From contig JALTLO010000177.1 in assembly GCA_027001995.1 (NCBI GenBank), positions 754 to 64,753 of the forward strand: a stretch of 64,000 bases of DNA, written 5' to 3'. Of this stretch, positions 9,001 to 12,000 are shown in pieces (position 1 is the first letter of the stretch; each line of letters opens with the position of its first letter). The DNA comes from Planctomycetota bacterium. GTDB lineage: Bacteria > Planctomycetota > GCA-002687715 > DRQF01. Made by a program: the position numbers.

Positions 9001-12000
9001 GAAATCCCTGTCGGAGTCGTAAGGGGAGTAGGCCTGTTCTTTGGCAGGAAAAAGAAAGGCCGATGCAAAGCATCGGCCTTTCTCGCAAGTGTGGTTGTGG
9101 GCCTAAGGTGAGCTGCGGGCTCTAACCCGCTTCAGGCTTAGTAGCTGCCTGTCACTCCACCTTCGGTTGTCTTTCCTTTACGAGCGCCCGTGATTCCACC
9201 AAACGCTTTGCGTTTGTGATCAAGGGAGACTTCGATTTCAGCATCTTTCGGTACACGCACGGTGACCGGACTAAAACCGCCGCCTCAGCACCCACCAAAC
9301 TTGGCCGTCTTGATTTCCCGGCCTTTCTTGTCTTTGATGACAAATTTAGGTGGTGCTCCGTCTGGGACCCAGTTGTAATATTCCTCACCGGCCTTACCGT
9401 AGAACCAAAGGCTCTGCGGTGAGAAGGTGATTTCTTCGCCATTGCGTGTGTATTCGAATTCGGCGCGGATTGGCGCGCCCCACGCGAATACAGATGGCTC
9501 GTCCGCTGTGACGCGGATAGGCTTGGCTGTACCACCCTTAATAAGAGCAGACTCCTTACCCATAGTGATTTTGCCTGCAGCGATCGAGTAGAGACCCTCT
9601 GGGACGAGGAATCCTTTTTTCGCTGAAGCCATGTTGAAGGAATAGTCACCATTCTCAGAAACTACGATTGCAGCAGTGAGTTTGGCTTTTGCTTTGTACT
9701 TGGCGCGCAGGTTGAGAAGACCAGCTTTACCAGAGTAGGGCTTGTAAGAAATCTTTGAACCATTTTCAGGGACTTCGATTTCGAAAAGCTCACCCTTGAC
9801 GCTGATCACGCGCGACAAGAAAGAAGCGACATCCGTTTTGCCTACGACCATAGCGTCTTCACCGAAATCGTTGAAGCGGCCATTGTTGTTTTGGTCGATG
9901 AGCTTAACTTGTACACCGTTGACTTTACCGACATGGGCACCGGAAGATGACCACTTCCAACCGCCCTTGTTTTGAAGGCGGACTGTGTACTTGAACTTTG
10001 TGCCGTTGGCATCTTTACCCTTGAGGGTAAGAAGGCCACCGACGCCTTTGGCTTTTTCATCCACTTTGCCGTCTGCATTGCAGTCGACTGCCAAGGCCAT
10101 GCCATCGATTTCAGCTTTGAAGCCGTCACCAATTTGAATGGACCCTGCAACAGGGGTGAAAGTTTCCTTAGGCAAGAGAATATTCCACTTCGAATACGAG
10201 GTGTACTTCATCTTCGCAACTTGCACTTGATCGTCTTCATTGTTCGCGGCCGCGAAGTTTGAGACGTAAGCGAAGCAACCCAAGAGAGCAGCTGTCGTAA
10301 GAAGTGAACCGATGAATTTCTTCATAACGGTCCTCCTAGGATTAATAAAATTACAACACGTGTTTGTGATCGGGATGGTTGGTTAGGAAGGGATTCCGCC
10401 GCTCATCTCTCTCACTCCCGAAGACTAAACTATTTACGATGCAGAAATAGCACTATTCTCAGTCTATTGTGCGGGAAGAAATGATTACCGATCGCCATAA
10501 ACGCTTGGTAGGATTTCTGTTGTAGAGCGATTTTGCTCGGTTATCCCGTCTCATTCATGAGATTGTGGTCGTGAATTATTCGGGTCAGGGGCCCCTAGGG
10601 AGATCTTTTGCCATGAATAAGAACGCTCAGGCCCGTTTGGGCGACATTCGCTGTCTCCAGGGGGACATAACCGACTGTGAGGTGGACGCGATTGTAAATG
10701 CGGCCAATTCCTCGTTGATGGGGGGCGGGGGAGTCGATGGAGCGATCCATCGCGCTGCAGGCCCTGCCTTGGTTCATGCCTGCCGCGCTCTTCAGCCTCC
10801 GGGCTGCGAAACCGGGGAGGCCAGAATCACATCAGCTTTTGACCTCAAAGCTCAGTTTGTCATTCATACAGTGGGGCCGGTTTATCGGGACGGAAGCGTG
10901 GGCGAATCAGCACTTTTGGCCTCCTGCTACCGCTCTTGTGTGAAGTTGGCTGCGCAAAACGATATCCAGACGATGGCATTCCCGGCAATCTCCTGTGGAA
11001 TCTTCGGTTACCCGGTGGGAGAGGCTGCTGCGATTGCTCTTACAAGCCTCGCTGAAGCTTTGGGAGAAAACCCAGATGTTTCCCATATTTCGATGGTGCT
11101 GTTCGAGGAAGAGGTCTACCGGATTTTTCAGGAAACTCACAAACTCCTTGGAGCCGGATCCTAATACAGGTCTTCTGTCTACTTCACGACTTCGGGGCCG
11201 CGATCTTGTGACTTAGTCGAGTTTATCTTGGCCTTGTTTTCCTTTTGTGAATTTTTTTGGATTGGGGGCCGATAAGGGCCTCATGACATCCGATTTAGTC
11301 TTAGAAACAACACCGTCTCTCCTTGTTGACCAAACCCCTGAATCTCGCCTTGGGTTAGAAAGAGCCGCTCGGCGCCGTGAACTTGAGGGAAAGCCCCAGT
11401 TCTTTGGCGATGGGCGCAAATGGATCCCATTTCAAATGATGGATCCGGCTCTTAGGATCGCCCGAGGCGTTCTTTCTCTTGCTGGGGTGTATCGTCCTTT
11501 GGCCTCCCGGGCTACGAAAATCAACGTGGTCGAAAATGAAGTTTACCTCCGTGGGGTGAAGCCTGGAGTCGAAGGGGCCCGTATTCTCCATCTTTCGGAT
11601 TTGCACATTGATGGTTCTCCTGGGTTGGGCAAACGTTTGGCTGAGGCTTGTGCTGAAATTGACTTTGATGTTGCTGTTTTGACGGGAGATCTGCGCCTTG
11701 AGATCAAGGGAGATTTCACCCCAGTACTTGAGGAATTGGCGCCTCTCATCGAAGTTCTCAACGGTTGCGAGCACGGGGTTTTTGCTATCTTGGGCAATCA
11801 CGATGAGTTGGACATGGTGGCGCCCATCGAGAGTATGGGCGCGACCTACTTACTAAATGAATCCTGTGGAATCGAAATGGGCTATGACCAGCTTTACCTA
11901 GCGGGCGTTGATGACGCTCATTTCTTCGGCACGGATGATATCGATTCGTCTTTGCAGCAGGTGCCGGCGGATGAAACTTGCCTCTTTCTTTGCCATAGCC

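What a model noticed while it worked through the whole genome (the two positions that open the first line are those of the whole stretch)
9138..10325. Secreted 395-aa protein family with a vicinal Cys-Sec (G-G-C-U-G-G-G) near the C-terminus
g03497 does not end at its called TGA: the frame runs on for 48 codons, giving a 395-aa signal-peptide protein of no known family with selenocysteine at codon 347 in the motif F-G-G-C-U-G-G-G-F. Orthologues and paralogues in the class keep the UGA; one paralogue has two consecutive UGA codons (S-U-U-G).
Evidence so far: Read-through frame with coding-like codon use on both sides. In 5 of 5 relatives searched: 8 matches at 39-80% identity that span the site, all with 1-2 in-frame TGA; 3 weaker partial matches that end before the site have none. 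In the 4 fetched the U column is fixed ([CTS]-U-G-[GQS]-G), followed 19 nt later by the hairpin GGUCAC-CGUGC-GUGUACC / GGUCGC-CGUGA-GCGUACC (paired changes). No Pfam row (pfam.tsv), no NCBIfam hit at E<=0.01.
(Added by a program. Inside this text positions count along the whole contig: contig position 754 is position 1 of the stretch shown here. "Call 12" and the like, gene names such as g00115 and contig names such as C1 are that model's own, and its searches are not shown. The text may have been shortened before it was handed on; [...] marks where a part breaks off. The agent that wrote the report below was given it as the finding of a first reader that could run no searches.)

Follow-up and report, generated by a model that had tools for sequence, protein, structure and literature searches.

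The report
New exported planctomycete selenoprotein family
This gene encodes a secreted all-beta protein whose in-frame UGA is almost certainly read as selenocysteine next to a cysteine, and it founds a large, so far unrecorded and mis-annotated selenoprotein family of planctomycetes that probably does redox chemistry outside the cytoplasm.

Summary
Window 9138-10325 (-) is one 395-codon gene with TGA at codon 347 in F-G-G-C-U-G-G-G-F.

**Evidence for selenocysteine**
- The genome has selA, selB, selD and tRNA-Sec.
- TGA is otherwise an ordinary stop here.
- The TGA column is kept in 26 of 26 class homologues and in 67 of 69 species-representative loci. The other 2 have Cys.
- Among the 150 best database cluster representatives, 100 are gene calls cut at this site and 12 carry Cys there, 9 of them as Cys-Cys.
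- A hairpin 17 nt after the UGA shows compensatory changes.
- The 48-codon tail evolves like coding sequence and completes a confidently modelled beta-sandwich.

**Novelty**
- No Pfam or NCBIfam model matches, and no solved fold is close.
- None of the 119 families in a 2026 inventory fits.

**Function (inferred)**
- A second chalcogen lies within 3 residues in 61 of 67 Sec forms: Cys at -1, -2 or -3, or Sec at -1 or +1.
- Three relatives are fused to a TlpA/ResA-like thioredoxin.
- One subfamily heads a MoxR-DUF58-BatA-like operon.
- Another form is the outer domain of an anti-sigma factor.
- I read it as an exported redox-active, TrxR-like Cys-Sec module. Metal binding is the main rival.

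The scan's notes hold no earlier finding of this protein.

The parts
9138..10325 (-). Whole gene: 395 codons (ATG at 10325-10323) plus the TAA stop at 9140-9138.
10332..10337 (-). AGGAGG ribosome-binding site, 6 nt before the ATG.
   Evidence: Read directly from the sequence.
10248..10325 (-). Residues 1-26, a signal-peptide-like N-terminus (MKKFIGSLLTTAALLGCFAYVSNFAA).
   Evidence: By eye. The same pattern is seen in all 49 trimmed homologues. It is a low-confidence helix in the model. No predictor was run.
9729..10232 (-). N-terminal all-beta domain, residues 32-199.
   Evidence: AF2 model, pLDDT 96.1. No solved relative: VIA best Z 4.6, Foldseek best E 0.03.
10059..10085 (-). D81-C-N-A-D85-G86-K-V-D89 loop. 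It looks like a DxDxDG-type calcium site; that motif is recalled, not tested.
   Evidence: D81, D85 and G86 are nearly invariant in A2.
9855..9896 (-). D144-QNNNG149-RFNDFG155-E-D157, the most conserved stretch of the family and a second Asp/Asn/Gly-rich loop.
   Evidence: D144, G149, G155 and D157 are invariant in 48 sequences.
9480..9728 (-). Middle beta-sandwich, residues 200-282.
   Evidence: Only generic Ig-like matches, Z<=5.2.
9177..9479 (-). C-terminal beta-sandwich, residues 283-383. It carries the Cys-Sec loop between strands 337-342 and 354-357. Three of its strands are encoded after the UGA.
   Evidence: secondary structure; pLDDT above 90 on both sides of the loop.
9285..9290 (-). 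TGC TGA, encoding Cys346-Sec347, inside G-G-C-U-G-G-G.
   Evidence: The column is invariant in A2.
9250..9267 (-). SECIS-like hairpin GGUCAC / CGUGC / GUG(U)ACC. It starts 17 nt after the UGA; the apical loop begins 23 nt after it.
9141..9284 (-). The 48 codons after the Sec codon (residues 348-395).
   Evidence: Conserved as protein. Differences fall mainly on third codon positions. It forms strands 354-357, 364-372 and 376-382.
9047..9084 (-). Intrinsic-terminator-like hairpin (15 bp, 3-nt loop) plus a U tract, 53 nt after the TAA.
   Evidence: -25.8 kcal/mol, z -5.9, and 0 of 200 shuffles fold as well. The simple pattern scan did not list it.

Best explanation
**Shown by computation.** The gene is a bona fide selenoprotein gene. 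UGA347 is decoded as selenocysteine by the organism's SelA/SelB/SelD/tRNA-Sec system, with the help of a short hairpin 17 nt downstream. The product is a 395-aa protein with an N-terminal export signal and three beta domains. It belongs to a large family, mostly of Sec forms, in Planctomycetota. Gene callers cut its members at the UGA.

**Inferred.** The functional unit is a pair of chalcogens on a glycine-rich surface loop of the last Ig-like domain.
- Here the pair is Cys346-Sec347.
- In relatives it is Cys-Cys, Sec-Sec or C-x-x-U.
- The pair would cycle between a selenol/thiol state and a selenenylsulfide (an eight-membered ring), like the G-C-U-G or G-C-C-G end of large thioredoxin reductases.
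- In the periplasm or exterior it would react with an oxidant or an oxidised client.
- It would be re-reduced by a TlpA/ResA-type thioredoxin, which is fused to it in three relatives.
- It may serve in defence against, or sensing of, oxidative stress. One subfamily sits at the head of MoxR-DUF58-BatA-like 'aerotolerance'-type operons, and another form is the outer domain of an anti-sigma factor.

**My odds.** Selenoprotein about 0.93. Redox-active dyad about 0.5. The stated physiological role about 0.25. The confidence figure given for this explanation (0.5) is for the selenoprotein-with-redox-dyad reading as a whole.
For: **Sec decoding**
- Machinery: tRNA-Sec 68.2 bits (cut-off 47), selB 334 bits (cut-off 242), selA 511 bits, selD 357 bits. 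All lie in the window's own genome.
- TGA ends 20 of the 36 other long ORFs in the window, so it is not reassigned.
- The U column is kept in 26 of 26 class homologues.
- It is kept in 22 of 31 further phylum loci. Of the rest, 3 have Cys and 6 are distant or mis-aligned.
- It is kept in 67 of 69 site-spanning loci out of 73 in the species-representative scan; 2 have Cys.
- Of the 150 best cluster representatives, 100 end within 3 residues of the site. 12 run on with Cys there, 9 of them as G-G-C-C-G-G-G. 7 run on with other residues.
- All 51 hits of the word-indexed search are 229-357 aa 'hypothetical proteins' that cover at most 88% of the query.

**Hairpin**
- Class set: 91.7% of 156 cells are paired. 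One pair occurs as GC 12, AU 11, UA 3.
- Second set of 13: 78 of 78 cells are paired, and two pairs each occur in three types.
- In both sets 0 of 500 shuffles reach the covariation score.
- The covarying bases are a third codon position and a first codon position of different codons.

**Tail**
- Third-position bias in differences, e.g. 2/2/12 at codon positions 1/2/3 between L021 and L022.
- The model has pLDDT 90.8 and pTM 0.85 and places three strands of the last sandwich after the UGA.
- Many relatives end with a second TGA as their real stop, 37-61 codons later.

**Redox reading**
- 61 of 67 Sec forms have Cys or Sec within 3 residues: C at -1 in 46, U at -1 in 4, U at +1 in 2, C at -3 in 8, C at -2 in 1.
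- The two routes to U-U replace different neighbours of the Sec (alignment A1).
- Three relatives (L076, L108, L114) are fused in frame to a thioredoxin-fold domain with WCGPC or WCRPC. Its best matches are AhpC-TSA (4e-24) and ResA.
- The tetrapeptides GCUG and GCCG are the C-terminal redox centres of mammalian and nematode TrxR (passages of PMC11508645).

**Context**
- 20 loci share a homologous ORF directly downstream.
- In 4 of 4 genomes inspected the order is Sel, ~770-825 aa, ~490-513 aa, MoxR, DUF58, VWA/BatA.
- Bat operons were proposed to keep the periplasm reduced (passages of PMC3557215).
- P0183 and P0187 combine a zf-HC2 anti-sigma N-terminus with this domain and are cut at the TGA. 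An ECF sigma gene lies directly upstream in L161.
Against: - There is no experimental evidence of selenium in this protein.
- By folding energy alone the region after the UGA is unremarkable: z -1.36, with 20 of 200 shuffles folding at least as well.
- No Rfam SECIS family matches, at gathering score or at E<=10.
- Only one or two pairs of the hairpin vary. The hairpin overlaps the conserved P-V-[TA]-V-x-V-P codons, and the three Cys forms I read keep most of the stem. Part of its conservation may therefore be protein constraint.
- Genomes with Cys forms still have selB, 5 of 5.
- Function rests on motif logic and context. No conserved polar residue other than the dyad could be placed near it, because I could not read model coordinates.
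- 6 of 67 Sec forms have no nearby partner.
- The window's own gene (subfamily A) is monocistronic between unrelated genes on the other strand.
- The window genome's MoxR/BatA cluster, on another contig, has no family member beside it.
- In Leptospira, bat mutants showed no oxidative-stress phenotype (PMC3557215 passages).
- In the 2026 inventory, most C-U selenoproteins are metal or organometal binders.
Confidence: 0.5

Rival explanations
1. The protein is a real selenoprotein, but the Cys-Sec pair is a soft-metal or metalloid ligand (Hg, Cu(I), Cd, As or an organometal). The protein would be a periplasmic metal-binding, chaperone or scavenging module. The fused TlpA-like thioredoxin would only keep the ligands reduced, as TlpA does for copper-site cysteines (that point is recalled).
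For: - In Table 1 of the 2026 inventory, the families with a C-U motif are mostly metal or organometal proteins: MerB-like SaoL, HgcA, SaoC, MbdU and a 2Fe-2S/CopZ-like protein (read).
- The protein is exported and built of Ig-like sandwiches, as many periplasmic metal chaperones are (recalled).
- MoxR/VWA systems are linked to metal-site (MIDAS) maturation (passage of PMC3557215).
Against: - No Pfam or NCBIfam metal-binding model matches.
- No conserved His or Met accompanies the dyad in the 48-sequence alignment.
- The partner's position drifts between -3, -2, -1 and +1, and 6 of 67 forms have none. That suits a resolving residue better than a fixed chelate.
- No metal-resistance or transport genes are conserved next to it.
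Confidence: 0.22
2. The protein is a real selenoprotein whose dyad is a covalent catch or sensor rather than a catalyst. The selenenylsulfide would exchange with a thiol of a partner protein or ligand. The partner could be the ~780-aa protein encoded downstream in subfamily B. In the anti-sigma fusions the exchange would be within the same chain. Either way it would switch a MoxR/VWA assembly or an ECF sigma response.
For: - The anti-sigma (zf-HC2) fusions have an adjacent ECF sigma gene.
- The gene order with two unknown proteins and MoxR-DUF58-VWA is fixed in 4 of 4 genomes.
- There is no other catalytic-looking conserved residue.
Against: - Only two anti-sigma representatives appear among the best 150.
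- The window's own gene has no such partner nearby.
- Binding to the neighbours was not tested.
Confidence: 0.15
3. The UGA is a true stop, or is leaky and read as a standard amino acid. The cell would make a 346-aa protein, and the conserved tail would be an unrelated feature or a rare read-through product.
For: - All public gene calls stop there.
- Hairpin energy alone is not significant.
Against: - Cys sits in exactly this column in 12 full-length representatives and in 2 species-representative loci.
- The tail is conserved as protein, shows third-position bias, and supplies three strands of a domain.
- The TGA is kept over 30-80% identity, whereas a stop would drift.
- Relatives use a second TGA as the real stop.
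- The full Sec machinery and other selenoprotein genes are in the genome.
- TGA is the commonest stop in the window.
Confidence: 0.04

Closest known systems
[quoted passage not shown]
   Same: - The tetrapeptides are identical: G-C-U-G in Sec forms and G-C-C-G in Cys forms, with glycine-rich flexible surroundings.
- Sec and Cys interchange in the same position (PMC11508645 passages).
- The implied chemistry is the same: a vicinal selenenylsulfide or disulfide in an eight-membered ring.
   Different: - It is not at a C-terminus and not on a flavoprotein.
- No Pyr_redox or any other Pfam domain is present.
- It sits on an internal loop of an Ig-like sandwich of an exported protein.
- Variants with Sec-Sec and C-x-x-U exist.
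- It works like TrxR's arm at most. It is not a family member.
Bacterial selenoproteins with a C-U motif listed in the 2026 inventory (SaoL NF040728, HgcA NF040863, SaoC NF040734, MbdU NF045648, KCU-star NF033934, Csac_0668-type)
   Same: Adjacent Cys-Sec, and bacterial SelB/SECIS decoding.
   Different: - None of their NCBIfam models, nor any other, matches at E<=1.
- Fold, size and export differ.
- Those families are mostly cytoplasmic metal or organometal proteins (Table 1 read).
TlpA/ResA/DsbE periplasmic thiol-disulfide oxidoreductases and their clients
   Same: Three relatives carry such a domain (WCGPC or WCRPC) fused to their C-terminus. The likely relation is reductase and client in one chain.
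   Different: The window protein has no thioredoxin fold of its own. The fusion occurs in a small sub-clade only.
Bat (Bacteroides aerotolerance) / MoxR-DUF58-VWA operons
   Same: Subfamily B genes lie first in an operon that ends in MoxR (AAA_3), DUF58 and BatA-N/VWA proteins.
   Different: - No selenoprotein or redox-active member is described for Bat operons in the passages I read (PMC3557215).
- The window's own copy is unlinked.

Membership tests
Bacterial selenoprotein (UGA-Sec via SelB and SECIS) | The in-frame UGA is conserved among orthologues and paralogues. | tested here: met
   26 of 26 class homologues. 67 of 69 site-spanning species-representative loci.
Bacterial selenoprotein (UGA-Sec via SelB and SECIS) | Homologues have Cys aligned with the UGA. 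| tested here: met
   L056, L059, L060. 12 full-length representatives. L139, L142. Same-genus pair: L055 has C-U and L060 has C-C.
Bacterial selenoprotein (UGA-Sec via SelB and SECIS) | A stem-loop lies just downstream of the UGA, with the apical loop about 16-37 nt away and a G early in the loop (rule recalled from bSECISearch). | tested here: met
   The hairpin starts 17 nt after the UGA and the loop C-G-[UG]-G-[CA] starts 23 nt after it. Compensatory pairs are present. Energy z is only -1.36. SelB binding is untested.
Bacterial selenoprotein (UGA-Sec via SelB and SECIS) | selA, selB, selD and tRNA-Sec are in the genome. | tested here: met
   All four score above their curated cut-offs.
Bacterial selenoprotein (UGA-Sec via SelB and SECIS) | Selenium is found in the polypeptide. 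| not testable with these tools
   Needs 75Se labelling or mass spectrometry.
Rfam bacterial SECIS families | A covariance-model match. | tested here: not met
   0 matches at gathering score in the window. Nothing SECIS-like at E<=10 in 9130-9340.
Any described selenoprotein family with a Pfam or NCBIfam model (119 families in PMC13188914 Table 1) | An HMM match to the family's model. | tested here: not met
   Pfam gave 0 hits at E<=1. NCBIfam gave 0 hits at E<=1 for the window protein and for the Cys-form and short-form relatives L056 and L069; relative L032 had one chance-level row (E 0.22, 11.9 bits against a cut-off of 31). The table was read. The four families keyed only to CDD ids are thioredoxin-like, ferredoxin-like or BtuF folds, which the all-beta model does not resemble.
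Large thioredoxin reductase | A pyridine-nucleotide-disulfide oxidoreductase body with GCUG at the extreme C-terminus. | tested here: not met
   No such domain is present. The motif is internal, at residues 345-348 of 395.
Thioredoxin-fold redox selenoproteins (CxxU / UxxC) | A thioredoxin fold around the Sec. | tested here: not met
   The model is all-beta with three sandwich-like domains. Thioredoxin HMMs hit only the extra domain of the fusion L076.
Bat/MoxR aerotolerance-type operon component | Encoded in one operon with MoxR AAA+, DUF58 and BatA/VWA genes. | tested here: not met
   Met for subfamily B in 4 of 4 genomes inspected. Not met for the window's gene, whose neighbours are a methyltransferase-like ORF and a macro-domain-like ORF on the other strand. 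The window genome's cluster on contig C31 has no family member beside it.
Known structural fold (PDB) | A clear structural neighbour. | tested here: inconclusive
   Whole model: Foldseek TM<=0.18 and VIA best Z 5.2 on generic Ig/FN3 domains. N-domain alone: VIA best Z 4.6 and Foldseek best E 0.03.

The most novel reading that the evidence does not exclude
This family is the missing redox-active component of the MoxR-DUF58-Bat 'aerotolerance'-type modules of planctomycetes. It would be an exported Ig-like protein that carries a thioredoxin-reductase-like vicinal selenenylsulfide. In some lineages this would be a natural vicinal diselenide, made from two adjacent UGA codons served by one hairpin. 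The module would pass reducing equivalents from TlpA-like thioredoxins to targets outside the cytoplasm, and the same module would have been recruited as a selenium-based redox sensor of an ECF anti-sigma factor.
Probability: 0.18. Interest if true: 0.8.

Novelty: new member of a known kind. Interest (0 to 1): 0.62.

Why it matters
- **Annotation.** Hundreds of database entries for this family are 'hypothetical proteins' cut at the Sec codon. All 51 hits in one search and 100 of the 150 best cluster representatives are cut this way. Each has lost three strands of its last domain.
- **Selenium biology.** The family is large and mostly Sec-containing. It lies outside the thioredoxin-fold world, in a phylum little studied for selenium. 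It uses the same G-C-U-G / G-C-C-G pair as animal thioredoxin reductases, on an unrelated scaffold. That would be convergent use of the vicinal selenenylsulfide. Its U-U variants would be natural vicinal diselenides and a test case for decoding two adjacent UGAs with one SECIS.
- **Handles on function.** The thioredoxin fusions, the link to MoxR/Bat-type operons (whose function has stayed unclear since 1999) and the anti-sigma fusions give concrete hypotheses. A cultured carrier, Engelhardtia mirabilis Pla133, makes them testable.

Tried and rejected
- **Hairpin by energy alone.** Not significant: z -1.36.
- **Rfam.** No SECIS family matched at gathering score or at E<=10.
- **Comparison with the selD SECIS region of the same genome.** No evident likeness.
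- **Does the hairpin decay in Cys forms?** Not clearly. L056 keeps it, L060 changes one loop base, and L059 keeps 5 of 6 pairs. This test does not separate RNA constraint from protein constraint.
- **Do genomes with Cys forms lack Sec machinery?** No. 5 of 5 have selB.
- **Pfam, NCBIfam, Foldseek against PDB, and VIA-align against 48,161 chains, for the whole model and for the N-domain.** No family or fold assignment.
- **ESM Atlas.** The tool does not take a read-through protein. I did not send another form.
- **The search for related loci with the 48-sequence alignment.** It failed for lack of a conserved stretch. A 10-sequence alignment worked.
- **Conserved neighbours for subfamily A (the window's type).** Only synteny among close kin was found: macro-domain-like and phosphoesterase-like genes shared by 4 loci.
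- **The 714-aa TGA-free paralogue in the window's genome.** It is not in a MoxR cluster, and it is not related at E<=1e-8 to the downstream partner of subfamily B.
- **The hairpin after the TGA of the anti-sigma form.** Not significant: z 0.08.
- **Sequencing-run tools.** Not used, because RNA coverage would not show decoding.
- **Cluster look-up for organism names of 10 Cys-form or distant representatives.** It gave no names.
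Full report
**1. What is in the sequence**

On the minus strand an ORF starts at ATG 10325, six bases after an AGGAGG. Under table 11 it stops at TGA 9287-9285 after 346 codons. Read through, the frame stays open for 48 more codons to TAA 9140-9138. That gives 395 residues with U347 in K-F-G-G-C-U-G-G-G-F-S-P-V-T-V. A 15-bp hairpin with a U tract follows 53 nt after the TAA (-25.8 kcal/mol, z -5.9). The neighbours lie on the other strand, so the gene looks monocistronic. The N-terminus (MKK, a hydrophobic run, then FAA-A) looks like an export signal. This is by eye only, but all 49 trimmed homologues share the pattern.

**2. Is the UGA selenocysteine?**

*Machinery and code.*
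- The window's genome (5.2 Mb, 204 contigs, 92% complete) has tRNA-Sec (68.2 bits, cut-off 47), selA (511 bits) and selD (357 bits, itself with an in-frame TGA). These lie side by side on contig C148.
- selB (334 bits) is on contig C17.
- Earlier notes of this scan record three other selenoprotein genes in the same genome. I did not re-test them.
- TGA closes 20 of the 36 other long ORFs of the window, so the code is standard.

*Class search.* In the 23 genomes of the class (including the window's own), 27 matches span the site and all carry 1-2 in-frame TGA. One match is cut by a contig end at residue 346. Three genomes have only a distant TGA-free paralogue. In the 26 I extracted, U sits in one column.

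*Beyond the class.*
- A 401-genome sample of the phylum gave matches in 123 genomes.
- Of 31 further loci read, 22 have TGA at the column and 3 have Cys: L056 S-C, L059 C-C, L060 C-C.
- The other 6 are distant or mis-aligned; two of those have a TGA a few residues away.
- L060 (C-C) and L055 (C-U) come from one genus.

*Species representatives.* A pattern scan of one genome per species returned 73 loci. Nearly all are titled Planctomycetota MAGs, and one is the cultured Engelhardtia mirabilis Pla133. The site tally is 67 U, 2 C and 4 loci that do not reach the site.

*Protein databases.*
- A profile search of 1.84 billion cluster representatives found 1915 at E<=0.001 and 247 at E<=1e-30.
- Of the best 150, 100 end within three residues of the site, so they are truncated gene calls.
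- 19 run on: 12 with Cys at the site (9 as G-G-C-C-G-G-G) and 7 with other residues in distant branches where the motif is gone.
- The remaining 31 are fragments or end earlier.
- All 51 hits of the word-indexed search are 229-357 aa and, where named, 'hypothetical protein' of Planctomycetota.

**3. The hairpin**

Seventeen nucleotides after the UGA lies GGUCAC-CGUGC-GUG(U)ACC (window 9267-9250).
- In 26 class sequences 91.7% of 156 cells pair. The middle pair of the upper stem occurs as G-C (12), A-U (11) and U-A (3), with no unpaired case.
- In a second register, 13 sequences including more distant ones pair in 78 of 78 cells. Two pairs there each occur in three types (G-C 8, C-G 3, U-A 2; and U-A 6, A-U 5, G-C 2).
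- In both sets 0 of 500 column shuffles reach the covariation score, and slid registers collapse.
- The covarying bases are the first base of a Thr/Ala/Ser codon and the third base of an Arg/Ser codon two codons later. In the second set they are a third base and the first base of a Pro/Gly/Lys codon. Protein constraint alone does not predict these links.

Against this:
- Energy alone is not significant (z -1.36).
- No Rfam family matches.
- Few pairs vary.
- The Cys forms keep most of the stem.

I take the hairpin as a likely SECIS, not a proven one.

**4. The tail is part of the protein**

- The 48 residues are conserved: P-V-[TA]-V-x-V-P, then F-G-x-I-x-G.
- Differences between orthologues pile up on third positions: 12/6/25 for the window gene versus L021, and 2/2/12 for L021 versus L022.
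- The AlphaFold model built from 48 sequences (pLDDT 90.8, pTM 0.85) places strands 354-357, 364-372 and 376-382 in the last sandwich.
- In many relatives the real stop is a second TGA 37-61 codons after the first. One gene thus uses TGA in two senses.

**5. What kind of protein**

- The model has three beta domains: residues 32-199, 200-282 and 283-383.
- Pfam and NCBIfam give nothing at E<=1.
- Foldseek against the PDB gives TM<=0.18. VIA-align over 48,161 chains gives at best Z 5.2 on generic Ig/FN3 sandwiches for the two C-terminal domains.
- The N-domain folded alone (pLDDT 96.1) has no neighbour above Z 4.6 or below E 0.03.
- Invariant residues besides U347 are D144, G149, G155, D157, G189, P242, G283, G310, E314 and Y316.
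- The D-x-N-x-D-G-x-x-D and D-Q-N-N-N-G stretches look like calcium loops. This is recalled, not tested.

**6. What the dyad says**

In the species-representative set, 61 of 67 Sec forms have a second chalcogen within three residues:
- Cys at -1 in 46
- Sec at -1 in 4
- Sec at +1 in 2
- Cys at -3 in 8 (F-C-E-S-U, F-C-G-T-U)
- Cys at -2 in 1
- no partner in 6

Alignment A1 shows two separate routes to U-U. In subfamily B the extra TGA replaces the Cys codon. In subfamily A it replaces the Gly codon after the Sec, while the Cys becomes Ser. The pair is kept even when its members change, which is how a redox couple behaves.

G-C-U-G and G-C-C-G are the very tetrapeptides at the C-terminus of mammalian and nematode thioredoxin reductases. 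In those enzymes the oxidised form is an eight-membered ring (passages of PMC11508645).

**7. Context**

- *Thioredoxin fusions.* Three relatives (L076, L108, L114) continue in frame into a TlpA/ResA-like thioredoxin domain with WCGPC or WCRPC. Matches are AhpC-TSA 4e-24 and ResA 2.7e-32, below the family cut-off.
- *Operon.* Subfamily B (C-U-G-[QR]-G-M-V-P-V-A-V, then D-N-W-A-F-G) is followed in 20 loci by a homologous ORF. In 4 of 4 genomes examined (G009, G145, G212 and E. mirabilis) the order is selenoprotein, ~770-825 aa, ~490-513 aa, MoxR AAA_3, DUF58, VWA/BatA-N. Bat operons were proposed to keep the periplasm reduced, but their function is unsettled (passages of PMC3557215).
- *Anti-sigma fusions.* Two representatives (P0183, P0187) have a zf-HC2 anti-sigma N-terminus, a membrane span and this domain, cut at a TGA. 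In L161 an ECF-type sigma gene lies directly upstream, and read-through gives 676 aa with G-A-G-U-G-F-S-P.
- *The window's own copy.* It belongs to subfamily A and has none of these links. The genome's MoxR cluster sits on contig C31 without a family member.

**8. Mechanism**

*Shown:* a UGA with all in-silico hallmarks of Sec, and an export-type N-terminus.

*Inferred:*
- The Cys346-Sec347 pair on a glycine-rich loop cycles between selenol/thiol and selenenylsulfide.
- It reacts outside the cytoplasm with an oxidant or an oxidised client.
- It is recycled by a TlpA-like thioredoxin.

Metal binding by the same pair is the main rival. Most C-U selenoproteins in the 2026 inventory are metal or organometal proteins. 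A sensor or covalent-catch role is the second rival.

**9. Novelty**

- The 2026 review lists 119 prokaryotic selenoprotein families, each with a Pfam, NCBIfam or CDD id. I read its Table 1. None fits, and no NCBIfam or Pfam model matches.
- BSepDB (111 families) takes its families from earlier reports. I read passages only, and 'Planctomyc' occurs 0 times in it.
- deep-Sep's nine new families are others (passages only).
- Searches for selenoprotein + Planctomycetes + SECIS (5 papers) and selenocysteine + Planctomycetota (8 papers) gave nothing on such a protein. I judged these by their listings and, for PMC4807772, by passages and Table S9.
- Table S9 names one 'hypothetical' candidate with a Cys homologue in Rhodopirellula. 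I could not compare it with this family.
- The supplementary family lists of BSepDB and deep-Sep were not opened.
- The scan's own notes hold no look-alike.

I file this as a new selenoprotein family: a new member of a known kind, with unusual features.

Noticed in passing
L161 (G077:C66:37500-44500) 2678-3376 (+) and 3440-5470 (+); also proteins P0183 and P0187: An ECF-type sigma factor gene is followed by a zf-HC2 anti-sigma factor. The extracytoplasmic part of the anti-sigma factor is a domain of this family with an in-frame TGA (G-A-G-U-G-F-S-P). It may be a selenocysteine-bearing sensor. Public calls stop at the TGA (621 aa against 676 aa read through).
   Followed up: partly
L020, L025, L041, L043 (class); L065, L101, L117, L119, L122 (phylum): Some members have two adjacent UGA codons (U-U). 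These arose by two routes: Cys to Sec at -1, or Gly to Sec at +1 together with Cys to Ser. The spacings to the same hairpin are then 20 and 17 nt, or 17 and 14 nt. If both are decoded, the product carries a vicinal diselenide.
   Followed up: partly
G000:C148:21750-24409 (L083, L084, L001): selA, selD and tRNA-Sec lie side by side. selD itself has an in-frame TGA near its N-terminus (G-G-U-A-A-K).
   Followed up: partly
G000:C141:100020-102164 (L082 10020-12164, -): A 714-aa TGA-free paralogue has a helical N-terminal half and a C-terminal part alike to residues 124-336 of the window protein. A copy was found in each of the 23 class genomes. It has no Pfam match, and its neighbours are unrelated housekeeping genes.
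   Followed up: partly
G000:C31:6431-13848 (L160): The window's genome has the ~775-aa / ~504-aa / MoxR / DUF58 / BatA-N cluster that follows subfamily-B selenoproteins elsewhere. Here it is preceded by a 1752-aa TPR protein and a 169-aa ORF instead.
   Followed up: yes
L021-L024, L026-L036, L042-L047: In many homologues the real stop codon is itself TGA, 37-61 codons after the Sec-TGA. The two meanings of TGA therefore occur within about 180 nt of one mRNA.
   Followed up: no
window 7313-8350 (+) and 8366-9022 (+): Just downstream on the other strand lie a 345-aa protein with a signal-like start and a beta-rich, outer-membrane-like sequence, and a 218-aa methyltransferase-like ORF. Neither was examined further.
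   Followed up: no
L108 and L114 (record titles): Two of the three thioredoxin-fused members, and one plain member (L113), sit in MAGs that their depositors titled Verrucomicrobiales or Proteobacteria. All other titled records are Planctomycetota. This could be mis-binning, mislabelling or a wider range.
   Followed up: no
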